From: Armatimonadota bacterium
Lineage (GTDB): Bacteria > Sysuimicrobiota > Sysuimicrobiia > Sysuimicrobiales > Humicultoraceae
Reading direction: 5' to 3'
DNA: 64,000 nt
Assembly: GCA_016869025.1 (NCBI GenBank)
Contig: VGFA01000006.1
Coordinates: 16,065-80,064, forward strand
Both the position numbers and the translations under genes were made by a program. This document shows, piece by piece, positions 10,602 through 60,807 of the stretch. Below the pieces are notes generated by a model. That model worked only from the letters and a program-made list of their open reading frames with translations. It did not search any database and was not told where the DNA came from. Positions within the stretch are counted from its first letter, which is position 1; each line of letters begins with the position of its first letter.

Positions 10602-11582
10602 TCAGCCCTCCAACCTCTTCGTGAACGTCACCCACGCCGGCATGCGCACGAACCCAAACTTGGCGTTGATTGCCAGCATGGCCTCGTTGTGGCTGCTGTT
10701 GAACGTGCGGATCACCCGGTAGCCCCGCTCCTGAGCGTATGCGATCGTCGCCGCCTTCAACGCCACCGCGATTCCCTGCCCGCGGTAGGCCGGGAGCACC
10801 GCGGTGAGTTGCTGGTGGAGCAGGCCCGGATCGCCATCGCTGCGCTTGAGCGCGCTTTCGCCGACGTAGAGGTCTCCCATCTTGGCAAGGAAGAAGGCGT
10901 CGGGCAGCACCCGTGGATGGCGGACCTCCTGGGCCAGGAACTCCTCTTGCGTGGGCGGCGTGGGCGGTTCGGGGTCGTCGCCGGGCACTCCCATGTCCAG
11001 GACGCAGTGCGCCTGGTAGACGGCTTCCAGGCAGTTCGTGTCGCGGCGGAGTTCCTCTTGCAGCGTCGTGATTGTAACTCCAAGCCGGGCCGCGCGCTCC
11101 TGGTAGTCGCGGAACCGGTCCAGGTTGACGCCGGCGACATCCAGCCGTGACTCGAACTCGCGCGCCTGCTCGACGAACTCGTAGCGCTGCAGGAATGCGA
11201 CGGCGCGGCTCCGATCTTCGCGCGTCCAGGCCTTGAGCCGGCGCCCGCCATGGGCCATGACCGCGGACAGGATCTCATCCATGAGCCGGCTGCCGATGCC
11301 CCGGCCCTGATGATCGGGATGGACGTTCACGAAGGAGAAGAACTTCTCCGGGTGATGCGCCCAGGGGACGTGGCGGTAGCCGCCGTAGGCGACCACCTCA
11401 TCCCCACCGGTGGTGGTCGCCACCATCCACTCTGAGATGTAGCGCCTCCGGTCGATCCTGGAGATCTCGTGCCGGACCTCGTCCACGGTGGTGGGCACGT
11501 CCGGGTTGATCGCGTTGTGGATCCGAACCAGCGCCGGAAGGTCGGCCTCGCTCAGTTCCCGAACGATTGTCTCTGCGACCAT
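10602..11582 (-). CDS. GNAT-family N-acetyltransferase (two tandem GNAT domains)
   Basis: Two acetyl-CoA-binding motifs: HPDHQGRGIGSRLMDE and LPAYRGQGIAVALKAATIAYAQERG. Confidence 0.85.
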   Translation of the reverse strand: MVAETIVRELSEADLPALVRIHNAINPDVPTTVDEVRHEISRIDRRRYISEWMVATTTGGDEVVAYGGYRHVPWAHHPEKFFSFVNVHPDHQGRGIGSRLMDEILSAVMAHGGRRLKAWTREDRSRAVAFLQRYEFVEQAREFESRLDVAGVNLDRFRDYQERAARLGVTITTLQEELRRDTNCLEAVYQAHCVLDMGVPGDDPEPPTPPTQEEFLAQEVRHPRVLPDAFFLAKMGDLYVGESALKRSDGDPGLLHQQLTAVLPAYRGQGIAVALKAATIAYAQERGYRVIRTFNSSHNEAMLAINAKFGFVRMPAWVTFTKRLEG

Positions 11583-48645: not shown

Positions 48646-49461
48646 ATGTTGCACAAGGTCGCTGGTATCTCGAGGAAGGGCCGGGACGAACTCGCGCTGG
48701 TGGCGGGTCGGGGGAGGAGATTGGTGTCCGTTTCGGAGGCCGCCAGCGCTCTCAGGGTGGACAGGCAGGCGGCAGCCCGGAAGTTGGCGCTATGGGCTGA
48801 GGAAGGTTGGCTCCGACGTGTGAGGCGCGGTCTCTACATCCCTGTTCCTGTGGAGGCTCAGGATCCCCGTTCCTGGTCCGAAGACCCGTTCGTCTTGGCA
48901 GATGCCGTCTGGAGTCCCTGCTATTTCACTGGCTTGACAGCCGCGAACCACTGGGGGCTTACGGAGCAGATCTTCCGAACCACCGTGCTCAAGACAGTCC
49001 GCCGGGTGCGCTCCTCCCGCGAGCGTTTCCTCGATCACGAGTACCTCGTCGCGCACATCCCCGAGCGCCTGATGGACTGGGGCCTCCGGCCCATCTGGCG
49101 AGAGGAGCGACGGGTGTGGATTGCCGACCCTGCTCGCACAGTCACAGAGATCCTCGACGCCCCCCTGCTTGGAGGCGGCATTCGTCAGGTCGCCGAGATC
49201 GTTGCCGCGTACCTGAACGAGCACGACTGGAAGACCTTGGTCGAGTACGGGGATCGTCTTGGGAACCGCGCCGTATTCAAGCGGCTCGGCCACCTGGTGG
49301 AGACGGCAGGCCTCGGGAAGCCCGGGTTAGTGGCGATGTGCCGGGACCGGATCTCTACGGGTGTATCTCTGCTCGATCCGAACGGCCCAGCGGGCGGCAA
49401 GCGAGTGGCAGAGTGGGGCATCCGGGCTAACGTCCAGGTCCCTCGGCACGGGGCTTCATGA
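48646..49461 (+). CDS. abiEi: AbiEi-family antitoxin/transcriptional regulator (type IV TA)
   Basis: N-terminal wHTH (VSVSEAASALRVDRQAAARKLALWAEEGWLRRVRRGLY) and C-terminal AbiEi domain (PARTVTEILDAPLLGGGIRQVAEIV). ATGA overlap with the toxin gene. Confidence 0.85.
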   Translation: MLHKVAGISRKGRDELALVAGRGRRLVSVSEAASALRVDRQAAARKLALWAEEGWLRRVRRGLYIPVPVEAQDPRSWSEDPFVLADAVWSPCYFTGLTAANHWGLTEQIFRTTVLKTVRRVRSSRERFLDHEYLVAHIPERLMDWGLRPIWREERRVWIADPARTVTEILDAPLLGGGIRQVAEIVAAYLNEHDWKTLVEYGDRLGNRAVFKRLGHLVETAGLGKPGLVAMCRDRISTGVSLLDPNGPAGGKRVAEWGIRANVQVPRHGAS

Positions 49462-50636
49462 TTCCCCCAGGTGAGATCCGCGCGCTGCGGGCCGAGTGGC
49501 GGCTCCGGGACGACATCATCGAGAAGGACTACGTCCTGGGCTGGCTGCTCGCCGGCATCGCAACGGATCCAGCGCTCTCGGCCACCTGGGTGTTCAAGGG
49601 CGGCACCTGCCTCCGGAAGTGTTACTACGAGACATTCCGGTTCTCCGAGGATCTCGACTTCACAATTGTCGGAGGTGGCCCGGAAGAGCCGAACGAGCTC
49701 CTCCTGGCGTTCAGGCGGATCGGCGAGTGGCTCTTAGACCGATCGGGCATTGAGCTCGTGCCTGACGAGCAGTCCTTCACCAGGCAGAGAAACCTCCGAG
49801 GGAACCCGACAACCCAAGGCCGGATCGCCTTCCGGGGGCCAATCCGATCACCCATGCCCCCGAAGGTCAAGCTTGATCTCACGAGCGACGAGGTCGTCGT
49901 GGAAGCACCGGTTCGTCGCCCCATATCACACCCCTACAGCGACGGCGCGCTCCCGGTGGTAGACGGCGTCCTCTGCTACTCGATCGTGGATCTCATGGCC
50001 GAGAAGATTAGGGCTCTCGCTGAGCGGTGCAGGCCGCGGGACCTCTACGATGTCGTCCACCTGTACAGGTATCCCGACCTCAGGGAGCGCGCGGCTGCTG
50101 TGTCGGCCGCGCTCAGCCGAAAGTGCACACATGTCGGGATCCCGGTGCCCACCGCTGAGACGATCCGGTCATCGCCGTACCGAGAAGAGGTCGAGATAGA
50201 GTGGCACAACATGCTGGCCCACCAACTGCCTCACCTGCCACCGTTCGCAGAGTTCTGGGCCGCCCTGGACGAGGTCTTCGCATGGGTGCGAGGTGAGTGG
50301 GCGGTCCCCACTCACCGCCGAGCCGAGATCGGCGATCTGCATGCCAGCTGGATGCCCCCGCGTGCGATGGCCTCGTGGCGGCGCGGTGCGCCACTCGAAC
50401 TGATCCGGTTCGCCGGCGCGAACCGCCTGAAAGTCGAGATCGACTACCGTGCCGAAGCGGGCCGGCAAGGCCCTCGCGTTGTCGAGCCGTACTCGCTCCG
50501 GATGACGAAGGACGGCAACCTCGTGCTCTTTGTTGTCAACGACCGGGGCCAGCTCAGGGGCTACCGGGTCGACAGGATCGCTGGCGCGCGCGTCACGGAG
50601 GCGCCGTTCCAGCCCCGGTACCTTGTCGAGTTCTGA
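49458..50636 (+). CDS. abiEii: AbiEii/AbiGii (DUF1814) nucleotidyltransferase toxin with C-terminal WYL-like domain
   Basis: IEKDYVLGWLL, FKGGTCLRKCY...RFSEDLDF (NTase motif) and KIRALAERCRPRDLYD. An extra ~90-aa tail reads LKVEIDYRAEAGRQGPRVVEPYSLRMTKDGNLVLFVVNDRGQLRGYRVDRIAGARVTEAPF (WYL pattern). Confidence 0.85.
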   Translation: MIPPGEIRALRAEWRLRDDIIEKDYVLGWLLAGIATDPALSATWVFKGGTCLRKCYYETFRFSEDLDFTIVGGGPEEPNELLLAFRRIGEWLLDRSGIELVPDEQSFTRQRNLRGNPTTQGRIAFRGPIRSPMPPKVKLDLTSDEVVVEAPVRRPISHPYSDGALPVVDGVLCYSIVDLMAEKIRALAERCRPRDLYDVVHLYRYPDLRERAAAVSAALSRKCTHVGIPVPTAETIRSSPYREEVEIEWHNMLAHQLPHLPPFAEFWAALDEVFAWVRGEWAVPTHRRAEIGDLHASWMPPRAMASWRRGAPLELIRFAGANRLKVEIDYRAEAGRQGPRVVEPYSLRMTKDGNLVLFVVNDRGQLRGYRVDRIAGARVTEAPFQPRYLVEF

Positions 50637-50725: not shown

Positions 50726-53557
50726 GTGGGCATGAACCCCGAACAGGAAGCGCGCCAGCGAATTGACGACCTGTTGACCCGGGCCGGCTGGGCCGTGCAG
50801 GATGCCGGCGCCGTCAACCTGTACGAGCGCCGCGGAGTCGCCGTGCGCGAGGTCGCCCTCAAGACCGGCCACGGCGAGGCCGACTACCTGCTGTACGTGG
50901 ACGGCAGGGCTGCCGGCGTAGTCGAGGCCAAACGAACGGGTTCTACTCTCACAGGTGTTGAGCCACAGTCCAAAAGATACAGCGAAGGGCTCCCAGACGA
51001 CCTGCCTGCCTGGCGGCGACCTCTCCCCTTCCTCTATGAGAGCACTGGGGTCGAGACCCGGTTCACCAGCGGCCTTGATCCCGACCCGCGCAGCCGCCAG
51101 GTGTTCGCGTTCCACCGGCCGGAGACCCTGGCCGAGTGGCTGGCCATCCCTGGGACGGTGGCCGAAGCGCGGCTCCGCGAGGAGTTGAAGGCGGCAGAGG
51201 AACGCGAGATCTACGTCGCGCTTCCCACACTGCGCCACGGTCTCAGGATGATGCCTCCGCTGAACCCGCGAGGGCTGTGGTCGGTACAGGCTCAGGCAAT
51301 CCAGAACCTGGAAGCGTCTTTGGCACGGGACCACCCCCGTTCCCTGGTTCAGATGGCCACGGGCAGCGGGAAGACGGTCATGGCCGCTCACCTGGTCTAC
51401 CGGCTCGTCAGGCACGCCGGCGCCGGGCGCGTCCTCTTCCTCGTGGACCGCAGCAACCTCGGCCGCCAGACTCTGCGCGAGTTCCAGGGCTTCGTCAGCC
51501 CCGACGACGGCAGGAAGTTCACCGAACTCTACAACGTGCAGCACCTCCAGTCCAACCGCATCGACCAGGTGAACCGCGTCTGCATCGCCACCATCCAGCG
51601 CATCTATTCGATGCTGAAGGGGGAGGAACTGGATCCGGAACTGGAAGAGCAGTCCGCCTTCGAGATGCTGCCGCTCCGAAAGGAACCTGCCCCCGTCGAG
51701 TACAATTTAGATATCCCCATCGAGACCTTCAACGTCATCATCACCGACGAGTGCCATCGTTCCATCTACAACCTCTGGCGGCAGGTGCTGGAGTACTTCG
51801 ACGCTTTCCTCATCGGCATGACGGCCACGCCATCGAAGCAGACCCTGGGCTTCTTCAACCAGAACCTGGTCATGGAGTACAGTCACGAGCAGGCCGTCGC
51901 CGACGGCGTGAACGTGGACTTCGACGTCTACCGCATACGCACGGAGATCACCGAACGCGGCTCCAAGGTTGAGGCCGGGTACTACGTAGACCGCCGCAAC
52001 CGCCAGACGCGCGCCGTGAGGTGGGAGCAGCTCGACGAGGACCTCGTGTACGCCCCCAATCAACTGGACCGGGACGTGGTGGCTCCCGACCAGATTCGCA
52101 CGGTCATCCGCGCCTTCCGTGATCGACTTTCTACTGAGATCTTTCCCGGACGTTCCGAAGTACCCAAGACGCTCATCTTCGCGAAGGACGACAGCCACGC
52201 CGATGACATCGTGCAGATCGTGCGGCAAGAGTTTGGGCGCGGCAACGAGTTCGCCCAGAAGATAACCTACAAGACGACCGGCGCGAAACCCGAGGACCTG
52301 CTGCAGGCCTTTCGCACTTCCTACTTCCCACGCATCGCCGTCACCGTGGACATGATCGCCACCGGCACGGACATCCGCCCCCTGGAGGTCGTCCTCTTCA
52401 TGCGGAACGTCCGCAGCCGCAACTTCTTCGAGCAGATGAAGGGCCGCGGTGTGCGGATCATCTCCTCCACCGAGTTCCAGTCCGTCACCCCCGACGCCGC
52501 CCACAAGACCCACTTCGTCATCGTAGACGCGGTGGGTGTGACAGAGCAGAACCTCTCCGACTCCTACTCCCTGGAGAAGCAGCCTACCATCCCCTTCGAG
52601 AAGCTGCTGGACGCGGTGGCCATGGGCAACCGGGAGCCGGAGGTCCTCTCCTCCCTGGCCAGCCGGCTGGCACGCCTGGACCGCCAGCTCACGGTTTCGG
52701 ATCGGCGCGCTCTCCAGGACGTGGCTCAGGGTCTGGCTCTCAAGGAGATGACTTCCGCCCTGCTCAAGGCTGCGGACCCGGACGCCGTGCTTGACGCCGC
52801 CCGCCAGGCGACGGGCCAGGACGAACCGCCGGAAGAAGCCGTTGCACGGGCGCGGAGGGACCTCGCGGAGGCGGCTGCCCGCCCACTCGCCGCCAACCCA
52901 GAACTGCGCCAGCGTCTCATCGACATTCGACGGTCGTACGAGCAGATGATCGACACCGTCAGCCAGGATCGTCTCGTGGAAGCCGGTTACTCCGCTGACG
53001 CCACCGACCGCGCCCGGGCCCTGGTGCGGTCCTTCCAGGAGTTCATCGCACAGCACCGCGATGAGATCACTGCCCTGCAGGTCCTCTACAGCCGGCCCTA
53101 TCGGCAGCGCCTGACCTACCGGGATATCAGGGGCCTTGCCGACGCCTTGCAGATGCCTCCCAGGGCGCTGACGCCTGACCGGCTGTGGGCTGCGTACCAG
53201 CAACTCGACCGATCCCGCGTGCGCGGATCCGGCCATCGGATGCTGGCTGACATTGTTTCTCTGGTGCGCTTCGCGATCGGCCAGGACGCGGAGTTGGTCC
53301 CATTTGCCGACCATGTGCGGGAGCGGTTCGATACCTGGCTGGCGGTCCAACAACTGATGGGTCGCGCCTCCACGGCCGAGCAGCGCCGCTGGCTGGAAGC
53401 CATCCGCGACCACATCGCGGGCAGCGTGAGCATGGGGCTGGAGGACTTTCAGTTGTCACCCTTTGACCAGCGGGGAGGCCTGGGCCGGGCCTACGCCCTC
53501 TTCGGGAAGGAGTTGGAGGCGCTGCTGGACGAGTTGAACCGGGAGTTGGTGGCATGA
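50726..53557 (+). CDS. hsdR: Type I restriction enzyme R subunit (EcoEI/type IB-like C-terminal domain)
   Basis: N-terminal PD-(D/E)xK nuclease (GEADYLLYVDGRAAGVVEAKR), helicase motif I MATGSGKT, motif II TDECHRS, and a C-terminal EcoEI-R-like tail. Confidence 0.9.
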   Translation: MGMNPEQEARQRIDDLLTRAGWAVQDAGAVNLYERRGVAVREVALKTGHGEADYLLYVDGRAAGVVEAKRTGSTLTGVEPQSKRYSEGLPDDLPAWRRPLPFLYESTGVETRFTSGLDPDPRSRQVFAFHRPETLAEWLAIPGTVAEARLREELKAAEEREIYVALPTLRHGLRMMPPLNPRGLWSVQAQAIQNLEASLARDHPRSLVQMATGSGKTVMAAHLVYRLVRHAGAGRVLFLVDRSNLGRQTLREFQGFVSPDDGRKFTELYNVQHLQSNRIDQVNRVCIATIQRIYSMLKGEELDPELEEQSAFEMLPLRKEPAPVEYNLDIPIETFNVIITDECHRSIYNLWRQVLEYFDAFLIGMTATPSKQTLGFFNQNLVMEYSHEQAVADGVNVDFDVYRIRTEITERGSKVEAGYYVDRRNRQTRAVRWEQLDEDLVYAPNQLDRDVVAPDQIRTVIRAFRDRLSTEIFPGRSEVPKTLIFAKDDSHADDIVQIVRQEFGRGNEFAQKITYKTTGAKPEDLLQAFRTSYFPRIAVTVDMIATGTDIRPLEVVLFMRNVRSRNFFEQMKGRGVRIISSTEFQSVTPDAAHKTHFVIVDAVGVTEQNLSDSYSLEKQPTIPFEKLLDAVAMGNREPEVLSSLASRLARLDRQLTVSDRRALQDVAQGLALKEMTSALLKAADPDAVLDAARQATGQDEPPEEAVARARRDLAEAAARPLAANPELRQRLIDIRRSYEQMIDTVSQDRLVEAGYSADATDRARALVRSFQEFIAQHRDEITALQVLYSRPYRQRLTYRDIRGLADALQMPPRALTPDRLWAAYQQLDRSRVRGSGHRMLADIVSLVRFAIGQDAELVPFADHVRERFDTWLAVQQLMGRASTAEQRRWLEAIRDHIAGSVSMGLEDFQLSPFDQRGGLGRAYALFGKELEALLDELNRELVA

Positions 53558-54213
53558 ATAGGCTGTCGTGCGCTTACTGCGGAAGCAGCGTGTCGAGAGC
53601 CGACAGAGAGCATGTTGTCCCCCGGTGCCTCTATCCCGACTCCAAGAGGAGTTCGAAGGTTCAGCGGCTGACCGTCCCTGCCTGCAGATCCTGCAACACC
53701 AGTTGGTCTGACGACGAAGCGCATTTCCGCAATATGATGCTGATCGCAGGCGAACCGAACTCGTCGGTACAGGAGCTCTGGCAAACCAAGACACGGCGGA
53801 GTTTCCGGGAAGTCGACGGGCCACGGCGGATGCGGGACCTTCTCTTCCAGCTGAAACCCGTTGAGACTGCAGACGGGCTGAGGCACATGGTCTATCCGGC
53901 CAGCGATGAGCGAGTCATGCGAATCATCCGGAAGATCGTGCGGGGCCTTTGTCATCATCATTGCGTAGTGTCCCCTGTCCAGGACCAGCAGGTGCGGGCA
54001 CGCGTTCTGGAATACCTAGCACCCCCAGAGCTCCTGGACGAGATGAGCTACCACCACTTGGAAAAGGATGTCTTCGAGTATCGGTATGCGGTCCTCGATG
54101 AGCCGGAGATCAACTCCGCATGGCTGCTGACGTTCTTCGAGCGCCGGAAGTTCATCGCCACTGTGACTCCCCTGCAACCGCTCAGTGAGGCGAACGGTGA
54201 AACAGGTAACTGA
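53554..54213 (+). CDS. HNH-type endonuclease-like protein inserted between hsdR and hsdS
   Basis: CAYCGSSVSRADREHVVPRCLY...VPACRSCNTSWSDDEAHF is a Cys4 plus H-N-H arrangement. ATGA overlap with the hsdR stop. Confidence 0.7.
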   Translation: MNRLSCAYCGSSVSRADREHVVPRCLYPDSKRSSKVQRLTVPACRSCNTSWSDDEAHFRNMMLIAGEPNSSVQELWQTKTRRSFREVDGPRRMRDLLFQLKPVETADGLRHMVYPASDERVMRIIRKIVRGLCHHHCVVSPVQDQQVRARVLEYLAPPELLDEMSYHHLEKDVFEYRYAVLDEPEINSAWLLTFFERRKFIATVTPLQPLSEANGETGN

Positions 54214-55777
54214 AGCAAGCGAGCGCACCGAACCTGTCCCCAGGGCACAACTCCTGCCTCCAGGGTGGGTGTGGACTACTTTGGGAGAGGTTTGCCTGGT
54301 CAACCCAAGTACCATCGCCGGGCCTCTGGGAGACGACGTGCCAGTCTCCTTCGTTCCGATGGCCGCCGTTGAGACCGCCACTGGGCGAGTAGATGCAAGC
54401 CGGGTGCGACCCTACAGCGAGGTCGCGAGGGGCTACACACGTTTCTCCGAAGGGGATGTTCTGTTCGCCAAGATCACTCCTTGCATGGAAAATGGCAAGA
54501 TTGCGGTGGCCCGGGGTCTGACGAACGGCGCAGGTTGCGGATCAACAGAGTTCCATGTGCTCCGACCGTTGGGCCACGTTTCCAGCGAACTGGTCATGTA
54601 CTACCTGCTCCAAGACAACTTCCGAAAGGAAGCGCGCAGGCACATGGCCGGGACGGCAGGGCAACTGCGGGTGCCGGCTTGGTTTGTTAGCGAAGCGCCC
54701 TTTCCACTCCCACCTCTCCAGGAGCAGCACCGCATCGTCGCGGAGATCGACAAGCACCTCACCCGCCTGGATGCCGCCGTCGCCTCTCTCCAGCGAGCCC
54801 GGGCCAACCTGAAGCGCTACCGCGCCAGCGTGCTCAAGGCGGCGTGTGAGGGACACCTGGTGCCCACCGAGGCCGAGTTAGCCCGTCACGAGGGTCGGGG
54901 CTACGAGCCTGCCTCGGTGCTGCTGGAGCGCATCCTAGAGGAGCGCCGCGCCCGGTGGGTGGCTCATGGGAAGCGCCGTGGCAAGTACCGGGAATCCCAA
55001 CCGCTGGACACTTCCAATCTACCAGCGCTTCCTGAGGGCTGGGTGTGGGCCACGGTGGAACAGATTGGCTCTGTGGGTAGCGGGCACACGCCAAAGGGTG
55101 TTGCCGGATACATAACACCCTCTGGAGAGATACCCTGGTTCAGGGTTGGAGACATGAACTTGCCCGGCAATGAGCGGTTCATGAGGAATGGTACCGCTTT
55201 CGTCTCTTCAACAGATGCCGGGTTGCTGGGGCTTCGGGCATTTCCACCAGGGACTATCGTCTTCCCGAAGCGAGGCGGTGCAATCGTGACTAACAAGAAG
55301 CGCCAACTCGCACTTCCTAGCGCCCTTGATTTGAACACGATGGGAATTGTGCCTAGCCCTCTCGTCGCAGCCTACGTCTGGTGGTGGTTTCAGACAGTGC
55401 CTCTTGTAGCACTGCATGATGGTTCAAATGTGCCTCAGATCAACCATGACGACATTGCACCGTTGCTAGTGCCACTTCCGCCGCTCTCGGAGCAGCGCCG
55501 AATAGTCGCCGAGGTGGAGCGCCTCCTGGCCGTGATCCAGGCGGCGGCAGAGATGCTGGGGGCTAACCTGCAGCGCGCGGAGCGGCTGCGTCAGGTCGTC
55601 CTCCGACGCGCCCTTGAGGGGAAGCTCGTTCCCCAAGACCCCACCGACGTGCCGGCCTCCGTGCTGCTGGAGCGCATCCGCGCGGAAGAGGAACATGCGG
55701 GGAGGAACACCGAAAAGGCGAGACGAAAAGTCAGCCGCCGACAGAAGGCTGAGTTAGAAGGCCCAGCGGGGGCATGA
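54185..55777 (+). CDS. hsdS: Type I restriction-modification specificity subunit
   Basis: Two target-recognition halves, each starting LP(P/E)GW(V)W..LGEV/VEQI and each ending in a conserved helix (LPPLQEQHRIVAEIDKHL and LPPLSEQRRIVAEVERLL). The start is uncertain because of a 29-nt overlap with the HNH ORF. Confidence 0.9.
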   Translation: MRRTVKQVTEASERTEPVPRAQLLPPGWVWTTLGEVCLVNPSTIAGPLGDDVPVSFVPMAAVETATGRVDASRVRPYSEVARGYTRFSEGDVLFAKITPCMENGKIAVARGLTNGAGCGSTEFHVLRPLGHVSSELVMYYLLQDNFRKEARRHMAGTAGQLRVPAWFVSEAPFPLPPLQEQHRIVAEIDKHLTRLDAAVASLQRARANLKRYRASVLKAACEGHLVPTEAELARHEGRGYEPASVLLERILEERRARWVAHGKRRGKYRESQPLDTSNLPALPEGWVWATVEQIGSVGSGHTPKGVAGYITPSGEIPWFRVGDMNLPGNERFMRNGTAFVSSTDAGLLGLRAFPPGTIVFPKRGGAIVTNKKRQLALPSALDLNTMGIVPSPLVAAYVWWWFQTVPLVALHDGSNVPQINHDDIAPLLVPLPPLSEQRRIVAEVERLLAVIQAAAEMLGANLQRAERLRQVVLRRALEGKLVPQDPTDVPASVLLERIRAEEEHAGRNTEKARRKVSRRQKAELEGPAGA

Positions 55778-56553
55778 CCCATCGAGCGACAAAGCGCAGT
55801 CGCGGCCGACCAAATGCCGTCGAGGTACTCGTGGCGAAGGTCGAGCAGCAATTCGACCCACTCGTGCTGCCCGCCGCTCACGGTCACGCTGGGACGCAGG
55901 GGGCCCAGGAGCGCCTAACTGCAGCCCTGGAGAGCGTCAATAACGCCCTGCTGACCATGAGCCTCTCGCGGGCTGCCAACCGAGCTGTGCAGAAGAAGGA
56001 TCTTCGCGGGCGCCTGTCCGAGACTCAGCTCGACATTCTGCGGGCAGCCATCGCGTTTGCTGGTGCGGGCCTGGACGCCGCCCTGAAGAAGCTGATCAAG
56101 GATACAGTTCGGGACATCGCTCTCCGCATTCCCTCGGCACGGCGGAAGTTCCTGGACTTCATCGATCGGCACCTCGCCGCATCCGACCAACCCGTTGATC
56201 GGCGCCGGCTAGCAGAGATCCTTGTGGATGGCCGTGGCAGCCAAGCAGCCCTGTTGGAAAGCTACGAGCGGGAGCTCACCGGCGACAGCCTTCAGTCAGT
56301 CGATCAGGTCAACGTCGTCTGTGGAGCCCTGGGCATTGACACCCGCACGATCCGGGAGCGTCTGAAGCCCGGCGCCACGCTCGACCAGATGTTTAGGGCG
56401 AGAAACGACATCGTTCATCAGCTTGATCTAACAGACCGCGGCCGCAAGGCGCGAACGTTCACGGAAGTTCGCGAGTTCGCAATGGAGGCCCTCGCTGTCA
56501 CTCAGGAGATCATCAATGCAGTCGCCACGACGCTCGAGGAGAGGGTCCTCTAA
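55774..56553 (+). CDS. Hypothetical all-helical protein with HEPN-like Rx4H motif (RiboL-PSP/MAE-type HEPN candidate)
   Basis: 259-aa ORF with an ATGA overlap with the hsdS stop. FRARNDIVHQ (R210-H215, nt 56401-56418) fits the HEPN Rx4-6H signature near the C-terminus of a helical protein. The assignment rests on the motif only. Confidence 0.5.
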   Translation: MTHRATKRSRGRPNAVEVLVAKVEQQFDPLVLPAAHGHAGTQGAQERLTAALESVNNALLTMSLSRAANRAVQKKDLRGRLSETQLDILRAAIAFAGAGLDAALKKLIKDTVRDIALRIPSARRKFLDFIDRHLAASDQPVDRRRLAEILVDGRGSQAALLESYERELTGDSLQSVDQVNVVCGALGIDTRTIRERLKPGATLDQMFRARNDIVHQLDLTDRGRKARTFTEVREFAMEALAVTQEIINAVATTLEERVL

Positions 56554-56602
56554 GACGCGGGTTAGCCGCAGCCGTTGGAGGGACAAAGAGGGGTCGTGAC
56601 TC

Positions 56603-59251
56603 ATGCCTGAGCTCGAACTCAACACGCAGGATCTCCCAACGCACCTTACTCGCGTAGCCGCGCGCCTTCGACTGGTCGGTCCAGATGCCTCTGGGGACAC
56701 ATTCCTCCTGACGTCGTACCTTTTCGAAGCGTCGCTGAAGACCATCGCGATTGCCCTCTGGTCTGGCCTGCGCGGGAGTTCTGCCGAGAACGCGTACGCC
56801 GTCGCATACAGGCTCGTGCGGGCAGACGGTCTTGGCGAGTGGGAAGACTCGATCTACCAAATGAGTTCGCAGCCACTTGCGGGCTACCTGTCCCCGGTCT
56901 TCCAACCAACGATCAACTGGCTAACACAGAAACGCAAACCACCAGCGGACGATTGGTTTCTTGCCGCGATTGGTGCCTCGGACCGGATCATCTCCTTCTT
57001 GGGGTTGGAACCGGATAGCGACGTCAGCCGGTATCGCACCATACGCCACCTCTTGAAGTCATTGGTACTGATTCGGAACAAGACCAAGGCCCACGGAGCG
57101 GTTGGCCCTGAGTTCTTCCAGATGGCGAACCCGCACTACCTTACCGCGGTTTCTGCTATCGCAGTACGCTGCCCCCTGTTTAGGGCCCGCTGGATGCACC
57201 TGTCTATCCGGGTGTCGAAGAACACAGTCCGCGGGGTTGATTTGGTCGGGCCAGAACCCAGGCACATTCGAGACGCTGAATGCGAGGAGTTTTCGCCCAC
57301 GGTCCCAGGCGTCCACGTAGCGCTGGCAAGAGGCATTCAGCCCTTCTATGTAGGCGAATTCCTCAGAACAACGGTGGAGTGCAAGGCGTTCCTGCTCCCG
57401 AACGGCGGTTTCACTACTGCAAATGGCGCCGAGTTCATCGACTTCGCAAATGGGGAGACGGAAAGGCTTGACCTGCCTGCCTACGCGTTACCGCCTGCGC
57501 CGCTACCCCCAAGCGAGACAGAGGGTCTCCCAGACCTAGATATCCAGAGCAATGTGTTCGGGAATCTGCCACCGCGACCGCATGGGTATGTGGAGCGGCC
57601 GCAGTTGCAGGGCGATCTTCTCACACGCCTGCTCGACAGGAATCATCCGATCATCACCCTCCATGGGCGCGGAGGCATAGGGAAGACGAGCCTCGCATTG
57701 TGGGCCGCCCACGAGTTAGCTTCTCGTGCTGAGCCACCCTTCAGTTTCATCGTGTGGTTCAGTGCACGCGATGTCGACTTACGCCCGACCGGACCAGCGC
57801 CTGTGCGAACGGCCGTGGTCGATCTCAAGTCTGTCTCAAGGGTCTATGGAGCGATGTTTGCTACCAAACCCTCTGAGGATGCTTTCGCTCGGATGCTTCA
57901 GGCGCCGCAGCCCGATGGGACCGGACGGCTGCTCATCTTCGACAACTTCGAGACCTTCGCGGATTCCCGTCAACTCCACAGGTTTCTTGACACCCATACC
58001 CACCTGCCGAACAAGGTGCTGATGACTAGCCGGGAGCGGGCGTTCAAGGCCGACTATCCGATTGAAGTGCGTGGGATGGAACCGGCAGAGGCCAGGAGTT
58101 TGCTCGCGTCAGTCGGGAGAGAGTTGGGGATCGAGGGTCTGCTGAATGATGATGCCGTCGAGTCCATCTACAGGTACACAGATGGACATCCGTATGTCAT
58201 GCGGCTCGTCCTCGGAGAGATGGCCAAGGAACGCCGCTATGTACCTCCCAAGGATCTCCTGCCCAGAAGAATCGACATTGTGAATGCAGTGTTCGAGAGG
58301 TCATTCAACAAGCTGTCCCAGCATGGCAAGTGGGTGTACCTTCTGACCGCAAATTGGAGAACTGCCATCGCTGAGCTTGCTCTCGTTGTAATCTGCGCAG
58401 AGCGCGATGTCGACGCGGAGGCTGGTGCCGAAGAATGCGTGCGTCTCTCGCTTCTCACCGCCGAACAGACCCCGGCTGGGAGTTACTACTACTGGGCGCC
58501 TGAACTTGCACGCGTATTCGGACGGAAGAAGCTTGATAGTGACCCCGATCGCCTAGCCATCCAACAGGCCCTCGCAGACCTTCGGCGCTTCTGCGTGCTG
58601 AAGCCGGGACAGGTCGCCACTACCTCACACTCAGACGTTGTGAACCGCTTCCTCGAATCGGCTCTGGAGGATACCAGCTCCACCGACGCGCAGGAAATCG
58701 ATCGCCTGAACGGCATTCTCGAAAGGATTGCCGAGTTGTATCCACCGGCATGGGGACAAGTCGCCGCGTTCCGCAGGCACTTCAGACTGCCCGGCCAGGA
58801 CATCGAGTACGCCCTTCGTCGTTGGGTCGAAGAACAGCCGTTCGACAAGACCGCCTGGCTCCAGCGCGCCGAGTACGCACGGGAGGTCAGCGACCAAGAA
58901 ACCCAAATCTCCTCCCTCGTGAGCGCGGTTGACGCTGACCCGCGAGACATCTCACTCCTGCGTGATGCGGCCCTCGCTCTATGTCAGTTCATCGACGCCC
59001 GCAAGGCTGCGATCCCAAGGACGCGACGCGGGGTGTACCTGGCAGGGGTCCGAGACCATATGGAGAGGTCAGCCGGCGATCTTGACGCGACAGCCCTTAG
59101 CAGGCTTGCCTGGCTCTTTCTCCTCGAGGACAATCGCGAAAAGGCTCTCTACTACGCAAAGCTCGGACTCGACAAAGAGCCTGGTAACGAACACTGTCGA
59201 CGAATCGTGCAACGTCTCGAGCCGCAGGCGGGCCGTCCAACTCGGCGCTGA
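56603..59251 (+). CDS. STAND NTPase (NB-ARC-like) with N-terminal HEPN-like domain and C-terminal helical/TPR-like region
   Basis: Walker A HGRGGIGKTS (nt 57662-57691), Walker B LLIFDNFE (57929-57952), KVLMTSRE, and GHPYVMRLV (GxP motif). The N-terminal region has LIRNKTKAHG (R158-H164, nt 57074-57094). The last ~340 aa are helical repeats. Confidence 0.8.
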   Translation: MPELELNTQDLPTHLTRVAARLRLVGPDASGDTFLLTSYLFEASLKTIAIALWSGLRGSSAENAYAVAYRLVRADGLGEWEDSIYQMSSQPLAGYLSPVFQPTINWLTQKRKPPADDWFLAAIGASDRIISFLGLEPDSDVSRYRTIRHLLKSLVLIRNKTKAHGAVGPEFFQMANPHYLTAVSAIAVRCPLFRARWMHLSIRVSKNTVRGVDLVGPEPRHIRDAECEEFSPTVPGVHVALARGIQPFYVGEFLRTTVECKAFLLPNGGFTTANGAEFIDFANGETERLDLPAYALPPAPLPPSETEGLPDLDIQSNVFGNLPPRPHGYVERPQLQGDLLTRLLDRNHPIITLHGRGGIGKTSLALWAAHELASRAEPPFSFIVWFSARDVDLRPTGPAPVRTAVVDLKSVSRVYGAMFATKPSEDAFARMLQAPQPDGTGRLLIFDNFETFADSRQLHRFLDTHTHLPNKVLMTSRERAFKADYPIEVRGMEPAEARSLLASVGRELGIEGLLNDDAVESIYRYTDGHPYVMRLVLGEMAKERRYVPPKDLLPRRIDIVNAVFERSFNKLSQHGKWVYLLTANWRTAIAELALVVICAERDVDAEAGAEECVRLSLLTAEQTPAGSYYYWAPELARVFGRKKLDSDPDRLAIQQALADLRRFCVLKPGQVATTSHSDVVNRFLESALEDTSSTDAQEIDRLNGILERIAELYPPAWGQVAAFRRHFRLPGQDIEYALRRWVEEQPFDKTAWLQRAEYAREVSDQETQISSLVSAVDADPRDISLLRDAALALCQFIDARKAAIPRTRRGVYLAGVRDHMERSAGDLDATALSRLAWLFLLEDNREKALYYAKLGLDKEPGNEHCRRIVQRLEPQAGRPTRR

Positions 59252-59308
59252 ACCAGAAGGCCGCTTAGAGCGGCCGCAGGTTACCGCGGACCGTTCGGAG
59301 GTGCGGGC

Positions 59309-60799
59309 ATGAGCACGGCCTCGGCTATCGGCCAGAAGTTGTGGAACTACTGCAACGTCCTCCGGGACGCCGGCCTCTCATACGGCGACTACCTGGAGCA
59401 ACTTACCTACCTGATCTTCCTCAAGATGATGCATGAGCGGGCGCAGCCGCCGTACTCGCTGTTGCCGGACTTCCAGCCCCCGCCCATCCCTGAAGGGTAC
59501 GACTGGCCGAGCCTCCTGGCCCGGGATGGCGACGAGCTGGAGACGCACTACCGGCATCTGCTGGAACGGCTGGGACGGGAGCAGGGTACCCTAGGGGTCA
59601 TCTTCCGCAAGGCCCAGAACAAGATACAAGATCCGGCGATGTTGCGCCGGCTCATCGTGGACCTCATTGATCGGGAGAACTGGTCAGCGCTCAGCGCCGA
59701 CGTGAAGGGCGACGCCTACGAGGCGCTACTGGAGCGCAACGCCCAGGACGTGAAGACGGGCGCGGGACAGTACTTCACGCCCAGGCCGCTCATCCAGGCC
59801 ATCGTGGACGTCATACGTCCTGCGCCGAGCATGACTATCTGCGACCCTGCCTGTGGCACCGGTGGGTTCCTTTTGGCCGCCCATGATTACATCGTCAGGC
59901 ACTACCCGCACATGGACCGCGGCCAGCGTGAAGAACTGAAATACCGCGCGCTATATGGCTGGGACATCGTGGAGGGCGTGGCGCGTCTGTGCGTCATGAA
60001 CCTGTACCTCCACGGCGTCGGCGGCGATGAGACGCTGATCAAGGTGGACGACAGCCTCCGGGCTCATCCGGGCACGGACTTCGATATGGTCCTGACGAAT
60101 CCGCCGTTCGGGAAGAAGTCCAGCCTGACTTTCGTGAACGGGGAGGGCGAGCAGGCCAGAGACACCCTGGTCGTCATCCGGGACGACTTCTCGGCGTCCA
60201 CGAGCAACAAGCAGCTCAACTTCCTCCAGCATGTGAGAAGCATTCTCAAGATCCACGGCCGGGCGGCCGTGGTCGTCCCAGACAATGTGCTCTTCGAGGG
60301 CGGCGCCGGGGAGACCATCCGCCGCCGGCTGCTCCACGAGTGCGACGTCCACACGCTGCTCCGCCTGCCCACGGGCATCTTCTATGCTCAGGGCGTCAAG
60401 GCCAACGTCCTCTTCTTCGACCGCAAGCCGGCCAGCCAAACCCCCTGGACCAAGACCCTCTGGATATATGACCTTCGTACCAACAAGCACTTCACCCTGA
60501 AGACCAATCCACTGACACGGGCTGATCTCGACGACTTCGTGGCCTGCTGCAATCCCGAGAACCGCCACGCCCGGAAGGAGACCGGGCGTTTCCGCCCATT
60601 CCCGTACGAAGAACTGGTGAAGCGCGACAAGGCGAATCTTGACATCTTCTGGCTCCGGGACGAGAGCGTGGAGGACTCCGCCAGCCTGCCCCCTCCCGAG
60701 GTGCTGGCTGAAGAGATAGTAGAGGATCTGCGCGCGGCCCTGGAGCAGTTTGAGGAAATCGGCGCAGACCTCGAGCCGAAGCCCTACCCCTCCGCTTGA
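59309..60799 (+). CDS. hsdM: Type I restriction-modification N6-adenine DNA methyltransferase subunit
   Basis: HsdM N-terminal domain (LWNYCNVLRDAGLSYGDYLEQLTYLIFLKM), AdoMet motif DPACGTGGFL, catalytic NPPFG. Confidence 0.95.
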   Translation: MSTASAIGQKLWNYCNVLRDAGLSYGDYLEQLTYLIFLKMMHERAQPPYSLLPDFQPPPIPEGYDWPSLLARDGDELETHYRHLLERLGREQGTLGVIFRKAQNKIQDPAMLRRLIVDLIDRENWSALSADVKGDAYEALLERNAQDVKTGAGQYFTPRPLIQAIVDVIRPAPSMTICDPACGTGGFLLAAHDYIVRHYPHMDRGQREELKYRALYGWDIVEGVARLCVMNLYLHGVGGDETLIKVDDSLRAHPGTDFDMVLTNPPFGKKSSLTFVNGEGEQARDTLVVIRDDFSASTSNKQLNFLQHVRSILKIHGRAAVVVPDNVLFEGGAGETIRRRLLHECDVHTLLRLPTGIFYAQGVKANVLFFDRKPASQTPWTKTLWIYDLRTNKHFTLKTNPLTRADLDDFVACCNPENRHARKETGRFRPFPYEELVKRDKANLDIFWLRDESVEDSASLPPPEVLAEEIVEDLRAALEQFEEIGADLEPKPYPSA

Positions 60800-60807
60800 T
60801 ACAAACC

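What the first reader, a model, noticed from the sequence alone, without database searches (positions are those of the whole stretch)
50726..60799. Type I R-M operon split open by three extra genes: hsdR-HNH-hsdS-HEPN-STAND-hsdM
Six same-strand ORFs have operon-like junctions. There are ATGA start/stop overlaps at 53554-53557 (hsdR/HNH) and 55774-55777 (hsdS/next ORF), and a 29-nt HNH/hsdS overlap. Only 49-nt and 57-nt gaps surround the 882-aa ORF. hsdS and hsdM, whose products must assemble for methylation, are separated by about 3.5 kb of non-R-M coding sequence. There is an established precedent: the anticodon nucleases PrrC and RloC reside inside type I hsd loci, and PrrC is unleashed when the R-M enzyme is inhibited. 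I infer that the inserted genes are a second-line guard or abortive-infection module, tied transcriptionally and perhaps physically to the R-M complex. I cannot match this gene set to a named defence system.
Basis: partly seen in the sequence, partly recalled or inferred. Interest (0 to 1): 0.8.

Follow-up and report, generated by a model that had tools for sequence, protein, structure and literature searches.

The report
Defence genes nested in restriction operon
An intact type I restriction-modification operon has three unrelated, uncharacterised candidate phage-defence genes wedged between its own genes; this kind of arrangement is already known, but these members are new and a close relative shows the operon without two of them.

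Summary
Six same-strand ORFs at 50726-60799 read hsdR, an HNH-like gene, hsdS, a HEPN gene (RiboL-PSP type), an NB-ARC/STAND NTPase gene and hsdM, with the stated overlaps and gaps. None of the three extra genes matches a named defence system.

The extra genes are not one module. Each family is mostly solitary elsewhere, with no conserved partner. None of 82 STAND loci has the HEPN gene. Seven distinct HEPN contexts have neither hsd nor STAND. Only 2 of 81 other HNH loci (L096, L179) adjoin hsdS.

A close relative (L179) has hsdR-HNH-hsdS-hsdM, with hsdS overlapping hsdM. So HEPN+STAND is a roughly 3.5 kb difference between the two loci, most simply an insertion, and the HNH gene is an older resident. 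The STAND protein looks self-contained: an Apaf-1-like NTPase, a C-terminal helical-repeat domain, and a confidently modelled 300-aa N-terminal domain with no structural match and an invariant RN-x4-HG motif (possibly HEPN-like).

This fits the published pattern of defence genes embedded in type I R-M operons, not a PrrC-type dedicated guard. Verdict: new members of a known kind, moderate interest.

The parts
48646..50636 (+). AbiEi antitoxin (48646-49461) and AbiEii toxin with a C-terminal WYL domain (49458-50636). This is a neighbouring, separate defence system in the same low-GC island.
   Evidence: PADLOC AbiEi E=3.5e-74 and AbiEii E=6.3e-134; Pfam AbiEii plus WYL.
50726..53557 (+). hsdR, the type I restriction subunit (EcoEI/EcoAI-like). 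The start may be ATG 50732.
   Evidence: Pfam ResIII, Helicase_C, EcoEI_R_C and HSDR_N; NCBIfam PRK11448 E=7e-113, below its cut-off. GSGKT and DECH motifs.
53554..54213 (+). Stand-alone HNH-like nuclease gene (219 aa) embedded between hsdR and hsdS. It is the older resident, shared with relatives L179 and L096.
   Evidence: Invariant C6, C9, C44, C47, N48 and H57, and near-invariant H20, in 35 homologues. Weak PtuB and PHROG HNH matches. L179 has hsdR-HNH-hsdS with the same junction geometry.
54185..55777 (+). hsdS, the specificity subunit with two target-recognition domains. The probable true start is GTG 54197.
   Evidence: PADLOC Specificity_I E=2.5e-120. The internal conserved-region repeat lies at 54903-54942 and 55647-55686. 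Start.
55774..56553 (+). Stand-alone HEPN protein (259 aa, RiboL-PSP-HEPN family) with an RNxxxH motif at R210/N211/H215. It is the first gene of the extra segment.
   Evidence: Pfam PF18735 at 29.6 bits against a cut-off of 28.4. R210, N211 and H215 are conserved in 67-68 of 68 homologues. The family is 624 clusters of single-domain proteins of about 110-325 aa.
56603..59251 (+). NLR-like STAND NTPase (882 aa). Residues 1-300 (56603-57502) form a new helical plus beta domain with invariant R158, N159, H164 and G165. The NB-ARC NTPase/winged-helix core spans about residues 320-650. A C-terminal TPR-like helical-repeat domain spans about 650-875. It is the second gene of the extra segment.
   Evidence: NB-ARC/NACHT hits. 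Full model pLDDT 85.7, matching Apaf-1/CED-4/plant NLRs at E=2.5e-8. N-terminal model pLDDT 94 with no PDB or BFVD match. Motif invariant in 68 sequences.
59309..60799 (+). hsdM, the type I methyltransferase. It now lies 3.5 kb from hsdS and keeps its own GGAGG ribosome-binding site.
   Evidence: PADLOC MTase_I E=1.1e-190; Pfam N6_Mtase and HsdM_N. NPPF motif. The N-terminal 60 aa are 95% identical to L179 hsdM.
55778..59304 (+). The ~3.5 kb segment (HEPN + STAND) that is absent from the related operon L179. It is bounded by the 8-nt direct repeat GGGCATGA at 55770-55777 and 59305-59312.
   Evidence: Alignment of both window junctions with the single hsdS/hsdM junction of L179; repeat positions.

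Best explanation
This is an apparently intact type I R-M operon that has served as a landing pad for independent single-gene defence cassettes. It is an example of 'embedded' defence genes.

The likely history is this. The lineage's operon was hsdR-HNH-hsdS-hsdM. A ~3.5 kb stretch carrying a stand-alone HEPN gene and an NLR-like STAND NTPase gene then entered exactly at the hsdS/hsdM overlap. Whether that took one event or two is unknown.

All six genes are probably transcribed together, so hsdM expression now depends on read-through across the inserted genes.

Functionally (all inferred):
- The R-M enzyme restricts unmethylated DNA.
- The STAND protein acts on its own as a sensor-effector. 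Its C-terminal helical repeats would bind a phage-derived ligand, NTP-dependent oligomerisation would bring the N-terminal domains together, and their invariant RN-x4-HG site (possibly a divergent HEPN RNase) would be activated. The outcome would be growth arrest or abortive infection.
- The 259-aa HEPN protein is a separate RNase-type effector.
- The HNH protein is a separate nuclease, and its defence role is the least certain of the three.

The gene content, the difference from L179 and the separability of the three genes are shown. Co-transcription, ligand sensing, RNase activity and anti-phage function are inferred.
For: - Anatomy and domains.
- Relative without the segment: L179 has the HsdR C-terminus (89% aa identity), HNH (72%), HsdS (64%) and the HsdM N-terminus (95%), with hsdS overlapping hsdM by ATGA.
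- Composition: GC3 is 0.84 for hsdR and hsdM, against 0.68-0.73 for HNH, hsdS, HEPN and STAND.
- STAND separability: the family has at least 1917 members across many phyla. None of 82 loci has the HEPN gene, and the commonest neighbour cluster occurs in 5 of 82 loci. The closest homologues (83, 82, 79 and 68% identity) have no hsd and unrelated upstream genes.
- HEPN separability: homologues at 51-86% identity in 7 distinct contexts lack both hsd and STAND.
- HNH separability: only L096 of 80 metagenome loci, plus L179, adjoins hsdS, and there is no conserved partner.
- Recurrent but minority R-M association of STAND: L086 is HsdR-STAND-HsdM-HsdS at 30% identity, L027 is HsdR-STAND, and L043 and L066 have a methyltransferase followed by STAND. 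R-M, GmrSD and integrase families top the neighbour census. Five of 82 loci against a published 1.5% background gives binomial P=0.009.
- STAND self-sufficiency: Apaf-1/CED-4-like core; N-terminal model at pLDDT 94 with R158, N159, H164 and G165 invariant down to about 21% identity.
- Literature: most systems seen embedded in type I R-M are mainly found non-embedded, and embedded genes share the host system's orientation in 96.7% of cases.
Against: - No experimental evidence exists for any of the three genes, and there is no expression data.
- The HEPN assignment of the STAND N-terminal domain rests on a motif and a weak profile-profile alignment (P=5e-4 and 4e-3). Foldseek, Pfam and PDB sequence searches found nothing.
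- Neighbours of the HNH family are mostly housekeeping genes and transposases, so its defence role is weakly supported.
- HEPN and STAND may have arrived together and could cooperate in this lineage. Absence of co-occurrence elsewhere does not exclude that.
- The opposite polarity, a deletion in L179, cannot be formally excluded from two loci.
- Promoter and terminator scans are uninformative in this 66% GC genome.
Confidence: 0.6

Rival explanations
1. PrrC-type guard. One or more inserted proteins bind the Hsd complex, are held inactive by it, and are unleashed when a phage anti-restriction protein inhibits the R-M enzyme.
For: The genes lie inside the hsd operon with overlapping or short junctions. 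HEPN is the same superfamily as the PrrC/RloC nuclease domain. The STAND family has been captured by R-M operons more than once (L086, L027, L043).
Against: PrrC is almost exclusively embedded in type I R-M. Here at most about 6% of STAND loci, none of 7 HEPN contexts and 2 of 81 other HNH loci (L096, L179) adjoin hsd. The nearest homologues (STAND up to 83% identity, HEPN up to 86%) work in non-hsd contexts, so no co-evolved Hsd interface is indicated. There is no ABC ATPase and no PrrC/RloC match in PADLOC.
Confidence: 0.1
2. HEPN and STAND form a two-gene system in this lineage. For example, the small HEPN protein is recruited or heterodimerises with the HEPN-like N-terminal domain of the oligomerised STAND, or acts as its regulator.
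For: The two genes are adjacent, 49 nt apart, and both are absent from relative L179. The STAND N-terminal profile aligns its RN motif with that of the neighbouring HEPN family (hhalign P=5e-4 and 4e-3, against about 0.3 for reversed controls). By established knowledge, HEPN nucleases act as dimers.
Against: None of 82 STAND loci has the HEPN gene, and none of 7 HEPN contexts has STAND. STAND's closest relatives have unrelated upstream genes or none. The strictly conserved RN-x4-HG motif in solitary STAND proteins argues that the domain is catalytic in its own right.
Confidence: 0.12
3. Selfish passengers rather than defence genes. The HNH gene is a free-standing, homing-type endonuclease. More generally, the inserted genes persist because sitting between hsdS and hsdM ties them to the R-M system's own addictive behaviour.
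For: The HNH family is scattered among housekeeping genes, transposases and integrases, with few defence neighbours, and has no partner. Placement upstream of hsdM means that polar loss of the insert's transcription would threaten methylation (inference).
Against: The STAND neighbour census is led by R-M and type IV restriction genes. HEPN contexts contain toxin, Schlafen-AlbA_2 and integrase genes typical of defence islands. The catalytic motifs are all conserved, which suggests selection on activity. No transposon ends or long repeats flank the genes.
Confidence: 0.13
4. The STAND protein is a non-immune signalling or regulatory NTPase that lies in the operon by chance.
For: Many STAND clades are not defence-associated: 391 of 589 in the 2026 census. 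Most of the 82 loci have no recognisable defence neighbour.
Against: There is no DNA-binding or other regulatory output domain. It has been embedded repeatedly in R-M operons at 30-50% identity. It is enriched near R-M genes (P=0.009). It shows a horizontal-transfer-like spread over more than 10 phyla.
Confidence: 0.05

Closest known systems
Defence genes embedded in type I R-M, BREX, DISARM and Hma loci ('guilt-by-embedding', Payne et al. 2024, bioRxiv 10.1101/2024.01.29.577857). Examples: TgvAB in Vibrio cholerae VPI-2 and the rlo genes of Campylobacter.
   Same: Extra genes in the same orientation are nested between hsd genes. They carry nuclease, HEPN or NTPase domains. Their families are mostly found non-embedded elsewhere. 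Co-regulation has been proposed.
   Different: None of the three proteins convincingly matches a PADLOC HEC or PDC model. The only hit is the HNH N-terminus to PDC-M01B at E=9e-5. Three independent cassettes sit in one operon, and a relative preserves the hsdS-hsdM junction without two of them.
PrrC / EcoprrI (and RloC)
   Same: A HEPN-superfamily nuclease gene lies inside a type I hsd locus, with a layered-defence logic.
   Different: PrrC is an ABC-ATPase-HEPN fusion that is almost always hsd-linked and is silenced by the R-M protein. Here the HEPN protein has a single domain, the NTPase is a STAND rather than an ABC type, and both families are mostly unlinked to hsd.
Antiviral STAND / bacterial NLR-like proteins (Avs1-5, Avs7, bNACHT)
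   Same: A single large protein with a tripartite layout: N-terminal putative effector, central STAND NTPase and C-terminal helical-repeat putative sensor. It shows sporadic, horizontal-transfer-like distribution and occasional defence-island context.
   Different: No PADLOC AVAST or other model matches. The core is closest to Apaf-1/CED-4/plant NB-ARC rather than to solved Avs structures. The N-terminal 300-aa domain has no match in Pfam, PDB or BFVD. The C-terminal region after the NTPase core is short, about 230-340 aa.
RiboL-PSP-HEPN family (Pfam PF18735; Anantharaman et al. 2013) and HEC-08, an embedded HEPN defence protein
   Same: Conserved RNxxxH (Rx4-6H) motif. A small, helical, stand-alone protein found in mobile or defence contexts.
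   Different: There is no L-PSP fusion or ParB neighbour, which were noted when the family was described. The Pfam score is only just above threshold. HEC-08 is a DUF3644-type HEPN with zinc ribbons and is not homologous at the sequence level tested (no PADLOC hit).
Septu PtuB / free-standing HNH endonucleases
   Same: An HNH motif with two CxxC pairs; weak PtuB and PHROG HNH matches over residues 5-58.
   Different: There is no PtuA ATPase partner. The match covers only about 50 residues. The C-terminal 150 aa form a family-specific domain of unknown function. Neighbourhoods are mostly non-defence.

Membership tests
Type I restriction-modification system | HsdR with SF2 helicase motifs and a nuclease region; HsdM N6-adenine methyltransferase with an NPPF/Y motif; HsdS with two target-recognition domains; all three genes present and uninterrupted. 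| tested here: met
   Pfam and PADLOC hits for all three. GSGKT and DECH in HsdR, NPPF in HsdM. Internal HsdS conserved-region repeat. No frameshifts.
Type IB (EcoAI/EcoEI) subfamily of type I R-M | HsdR is an equivalog of EcoAI/EcoEI. | tested here: inconclusive
   The EcoEI_R_C domain matches at E=2.7e-41. The NCBIfam equivalog scores are below their cut-offs: 378.7 against 729 and 176.9 against 550.
HEPN superfamily, RiboL-PSP-HEPN family (the 259-aa protein) | Conserved Rx4-6H motif and a match to PF18735 above the gathering score. | tested here: met
   29.6 bits against 28.4, which is marginal. R210, N211 and H215 are conserved in 67-68 of 68 homologues.
HEPN superfamily, RiboL-PSP-HEPN family (the 259-aa protein) | RNase activity. 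| not testable with these tools
   This needs biochemistry.
HEPN superfamily (N-terminal domain of the STAND protein) | Rx4-6H motif in an all-helical bundle, with detectable homology to a HEPN family. | tested here: inconclusive
   RN-x4-H is invariant in 68 sequences and sits in a helical domain. hhalign against the neighbouring HEPN family gives P=5e-4 and 4e-3, with probability only 9-32%. There is no Foldseek, Pfam or PDB sequence match; a single member hit Abi_C at E=0.14.
STAND NTPase, NB-ARC / AP-ATPase type | Walker A and B motifs, an NB-ARC profile match, and an Apaf-1/CED-4-like fold of the NTPase plus winged-helix core. | tested here: met
   GRGGIGKT and LLIFDN motifs. NB-ARC at 24.0 bits against 23.5. 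Foldseek matches Apaf-1, CED-4 and plant NLRs at E=2.5e-8 to 1e-6.
AVAST/Avs types 1-5 or other named STAND defence systems | A match to the system's curated profile. | tested here: not met
   No PADLOC-DB v2.0.0 model matches at E<=0.01. NCBIfam gives only FxSxx_TPR, at 44 bits against a cut-off of 300. Newer DefenseFinder models and the 2026 STAND clade tables were not available.
PrrC/RloC anticodon nucleases | An ABC-type ATPase fused to a C-terminal HEPN nuclease. | tested here: not met
   No ABC ATPase and no PrrC or RloC PADLOC hit.
PrrC/RloC anticodon nucleases | For PrrC, near-obligate linkage to a type I hsd locus. | tested here: not met
   hsd-type genes adjoin about 5 of 82 STAND loci, 0 of 7 HEPN contexts and 2 of 81 other HNH loci (L096, L179).
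HNH (His-Me finger) endonucleases (the 219-aa protein) | A beta-beta-alpha-metal motif with catalytic His, Asn and a metal-binding His, and a match to an HNH profile. | tested here: inconclusive
   The motif residues and two CxxC pairs are invariant. There is no Pfam HNH hit. PHROG HNH gives E=3e-4 and PADLOC PtuB E=2.8e-5, over about 50 residues only. One homologue carries a precomputed PF14279 HNH_5 hit. No structure was predicted.
Septu (PtuA-PtuB) | A PtuA ATPase encoded next to the PtuB HNH nuclease. | tested here: not met
   There is no ATPase partner in the window and no conserved neighbour in 80 loci.
Embedded defence candidates of Payne et al. (PADLOC HEC/PDC models) | A match to a HEC or PDC profile. 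| tested here: not met
   HEPN and STAND have no hit. HNH has only a weak partial hit to PDC-M01B, at E=9e-5 over 47 residues.

The most novel reading that the evidence does not exclude
The large STAND family (at least 1900 clusters, more than 10 phyla) may carry a previously undescribed N-terminal effector fold, whose invariant RN-x4-HG site could be a new branch of HEPN-like RNases. In this operon the family may have become functionally wired to the R-M system in one of two ways. It could cooperate with the adjacent stand-alone HEPN protein through HEPN-HEPN pairing. Or it could exploit its position upstream of hsdM, so that silencing the inserted genes would cause lethal under-methylation, which would be a maintenance strategy for embedded defence genes.
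Probability: 0.12. Interest if true: 0.7.

Novelty: new member of a known kind. Interest (0 to 1): 0.42.

Why it matters
The locus offers three untested candidate defence genes with clear catalytic motifs. One of them represents a very large, phylum-spanning NLR-like family whose N-terminal domain matches nothing solved or curated.

The pair of loci, window against L179, is a natural with/without comparison for the HEPN+STAND segment. It could be used to ask how embedding affects expression of an R-M methyltransferase, and whether embedded genes act independently or synergise with restriction.

It does not open a new category. Embedded defence genes, HEPN genes in R-M operons and antiviral STAND proteins are all established.

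Tried and rejected
- Named-system match. PADLOC, NCBIfam, Pfam and PHROGs gave nothing for HEPN and STAND beyond their domains, and only weak partial HNH hits.
- Conserved-partner searches around 82 STAND loci and 80 HNH loci, using all-against-all clustering of neighbouring ORFs. No partner was found. The upstream ORFs of the closest STAND homologues are unrelated to each other and to HEPN.
- Identifying the fold of the STAND N-terminal domain. Foldseek against PDB and BFVD, a profile against PDB sequences, and per-member Pfam scans of 68 sequences all gave no significant match. Only the profile-profile alignment to the neighbouring HEPN family was suggestive.
- Promoter and terminator scans. 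Counts were at or below the shuffle expectation, so they are uninformative.
- Transposon ends, long direct or inverted repeats, or a tRNA at the island borders. None were found; there is only the 8-nt GGGCATGA microhomology. I considered that this repeat might be a target-site duplication built from the hsdM start. I rejected that because the HEPN N-terminus is native to its family.
- Plasmid collection. STAND homologues at 31% identity occur on Ralstonia solanacearum megaplasmids but are unannotated there. HEPN has no plasmid hit.
- The + strand ORF 60796-62922 as a seventh operon gene. Rejected as a shadow of the penicillin-amidase gene.

Full report
**Observation.** Profile searches give the following:
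- hsdR (50726-53557): ResIII, Helicase_C and EcoEI_R_C.
- A 219-aa protein (53554-54213): no Pfam family, but a CxxC...H...CxxCN...H motif and weak HNH-type matches (PADLOC PtuB E=2.8e-5, PHROG HNH E=3e-4).
- hsdS (54185-55777).
- A 259-aa HEPN_RiboL-PSP protein (55774-56553): 29.6 bits against a cut-off of 28.4.
- An 882-aa NB-ARC/NACHT STAND NTPase (56603-59251).
- hsdM (59309-60799).

The ATGA overlaps and the 49-nt and 57-nt gaps are as stated. The Hsd proteins keep their catalytic motifs: GSGKT and DECH in HsdR, NPPF in HsdM. So the R-M system looks functional.

There are two small corrections. hsdS more likely starts at GTG 54197, which gives a 17-nt overlap. The + strand ORF after hsdM is a shadow of a - strand penicillin-amidase gene.

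The same eight-gene block (an AbiEi/AbiEii-WYL pair plus the six genes) recurs on many independent metagenome contigs, so it is not a mis-assembly. The block has lower GC than its flanks.

**Are the extra genes one module?** No. I collected relatives of each gene and looked at what lies around them.
- *HEPN.* The word-indexed search found 73 proteins. An exhaustive HMMER search found 624 clusters, all single-domain proteins of about 110-325 aa. In seven distinct genomic contexts, at 51-86% identity, there is neither an hsd gene nor a STAND gene nearby. The neighbours include integrases, a HigB toxin, a Schlafen-AlbA_2 protein and DUF3800.
- *STAND.* The family is very large, with at least 1917 hits. 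It is conserved at full length at about 50% identity in Acidobacteriota, Verrucomicrobiota and Chloroflexota. It is conserved at about 30% identity in Streptomyces, Micromonospora, Pseudomonas, Myxococcus and Ralstonia megaplasmids. None of 82 loci has the HEPN gene, and the most frequent neighbour cluster occurs in only 5 loci. The four closest homologues (83, 82, 79 and 68% identity) lie outside hsd loci, with unrelated upstream genes.
- *HNH.* The family has 456 hits. Of 80 metagenome loci only L096 has hsdS next door, and there is no conserved partner. Its neighbours are mostly housekeeping genes and transposases.

**A relative without two of the genes.** The closest HNH homologue sits on a short contig, L179, that is a near relative of this same R-M system. 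It carries the HsdR C-terminus (89% aa identity), HNH (72%), HsdS (64%) and then directly the HsdM N-terminus (95%). There the hsdS stop overlaps the hsdM start in ATGA.

Aligning both window junctions with that single junction gives three results:
- HEPN+STAND (about 55778-59304) is the difference between the two loci.
- The GGAGG ribosome-binding site in front of hsdM is retained.
- An 8-nt GGGCATGA sits at both ends of the segment.

The HEPN N-terminus is native to its family. The repeat is therefore microhomology, not a duplication of the hsdM start.

GC3 is 0.84 in hsdR and hsdM but 0.68-0.73 in HNH, hsdS, HEPN and STAND. This fits a variable central region between two conserved hsd genes.

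The simplest history is an ancestral hsdR-HNH-hsdS-hsdM operon that later gained HEPN and STAND, in one event or two. A deletion in L179 cannot be formally excluded.

**What the STAND protein looks like.** The full-length model (pLDDT 85.7) has three parts: an N-terminal 300-aa unit made of a helical bundle (13-194) and a beta-rich subdomain (196-290), an NTPase plus winged-helix core, and C-terminal TPR-like helices. The core matches Apaf-1, CED-4 and plant NLRs (E=2.5e-8).

Modelled alone, the N-terminal unit is very confident (pLDDT 94, pTM 0.93). Yet it has no significant match in PDB or BFVD by Foldseek, in PDB by profile, or in Pfam.

Across 68 sequences, down to about 21% identity, R158, N159, H164 and G165 are invariant, giving the motif [LI]RN[KR]T[KR][GA]HGA. 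G236, N267 and G268 are invariant as well. RN-x4-H fits the HEPN Rx4-6H signature.

A profile-profile comparison aligns this motif with the RNxxxH of the neighbouring HEPN family, at P=5e-4 and 4e-3. Reversed controls give about 0.3. I treat this as suggestive only.

A strictly conserved catalytic-looking site in a protein that is solitary in most genomes argues that the STAND protein carries its own effector.

**Relation to R-M systems.** The STAND family has been captured by R-M operons repeatedly. L086 (30% identity) is HsdR-STAND-HsdM-HsdS with 3-6 nt junctions. L027 (50%) is HsdR-STAND. L043 and L066 have a large methyltransferase immediately upstream.

In the census of 144 immediate neighbours, the leading families are N6_Mtase/Eco57I, DEAD/ResIII, phage integrase and GmrSD_N. 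The leading PADLOC models are R-M and type IV restriction components.

Five of 82 loci adjoin an R-M gene. Against a published background of 1.53% for a random gene lying within 5 kb of a defence system, this gives P=0.009. That background comes from a different detection pipeline, so the figure is indicative only.

The family is therefore associated with defence islands but is not dependent on hsd.

**Mechanism proposed.**
- *Shown:* an apparently intact R-M operon; three separable inserted genes with conserved catalytic motifs; tight same-strand junctions.
- *Inferred:* all six genes are co-transcribed, and hsdM, formerly overlapping hsdS, is now expressed by read-through using its own Shine-Dalgarno sequence.
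- *Inferred from the STAND/NLR paradigm:* the STAND protein binds a phage-derived ligand with its C-terminal repeats and oligomerises on NTP binding. This activates its clustered N-terminal domains, perhaps as an RNase, and arrests the infected cell.
- *Inferred:* the small HEPN protein is an independent RNase-type effector whose control is unknown. The HNH protein is an independent nuclease whose defence role is the weakest of the three; it could be a selfish endonuclease.

**Comparison with what is known.**
- HEPN families embedded in R-M operons, and HEPN-STAND fusions, were catalogued in 2013 (PMC3710099).
- Payne et al. (bioRxiv 10.1101/2024.01.29.577857) formalised 'guilt-by-embedding' for type I R-M, BREX, DISARM and Hma loci. 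They reported that embedded genes share the host system's orientation in 96.7% of cases. They also reported that most embedded systems are mainly found non-embedded, and that PrrC is the exception in being almost exclusively embedded.
- TgvAB in V. cholerae is a tested example that works independently of its host type I system.
- A 2026 census divides STAND NTPases into 589 clades, of which 198 are defence-associated (PMC13581612). This family probably belongs to one of them, but I could not check which.

The present locus follows the general embedded pattern, not the PrrC pattern. Its members are unnamed: there are no PADLOC HEC, PDC or AVAST hits for HEPN or STAND.

**Verdict.** This is a new set of members of a known kind of arrangement. 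It has two useful extras: a relative without the HEPN+STAND segment, and a large NLR-like family with an unmatched N-terminal domain. Interest is moderate (0.42).

Noticed in passing
window 50728-50735, 53551-57, 55770-77, 59305-12: GGGCATGA lies at the ATG of hsdR (alternative start 50732), HEPN and hsdM, and GGCATGA lies at the HNH start. There are 8 copies in the window against 3.6 expected. Three copies on the + strand of this 10 kb operon gives Poisson P of about 0.003. It may be a shared translational-coupling or recombination microhomology motif.
   Followed up: partly
window 48646-50636: An AbiEi/AbiEii pair lies directly upstream of hsdR. The AbiEii carries a C-terminal WYL domain and matches PADLOC model PDLC02317 end to end. 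Together with the hsd block it forms a ~12 kb island of lower GC between a fatty-acid oxidation gene and a penicillin-amidase gene.
   Followed up: partly
window 60796-62922 (+) versus 60808-63111 (-): The 708-aa + strand ORF that overlaps the hsdM stop has no family hits. The opposite-strand 767-aa ORF is a penicillin amidase (PvdQ-like), and gene callers choose it, so the + ORF is a high-GC shadow ORF.
   Followed up: yes
window 54185 versus 54197: There are two in-frame GTG starts for hsdS. The one at 54197 has a GAGG 7 nt upstream and reproduces the 17-nt HNH/hsdS overlap seen in relative L179.
   Followed up: yes
L086:7608-15308: A Verrucomicrobiae MAG has HsdR-STAND-HsdM-HsdS with 3-6 nt junctions, and its STAND is only 30% identical to the window's. 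This is an independent embedding of the same STAND family at a different position in a type I operon.
   Followed up: partly
L005:10013-10756 and 11068-11553: Two tandem paralogues of the HEPN gene (72% and 34% identity to the window protein) lie in a context without hsd or STAND.
   Followed up: no
window 59259-59275: A perfect 7-bp GC-rich hairpin (GGCCGCTTAGAGCGGCC) lies immediately after the STAND stop codon, in the 57-nt gap before hsdM. It has no T-tract on the + strand. It could be an RNA processing or attenuation element.
   Followed up: no
window 54903-54942 and 55647-55686: A 40-nt direct repeat at 85% identity lies inside hsdS. It corresponds to the two conserved regions that flank the target-recognition domains, which are the usual substrate for TRD shuffling.
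   Followed up: no
L178 (Ralstonia solanacearum Po82 megaplasmid, NC_017575.1 128253-130850): A full-length STAND homologue (31% identity) is present in several cultured R. solanacearum strains and is unannotated in the plasmid collection. These strains could serve as a tractable host for experiments.
   Followed up: no
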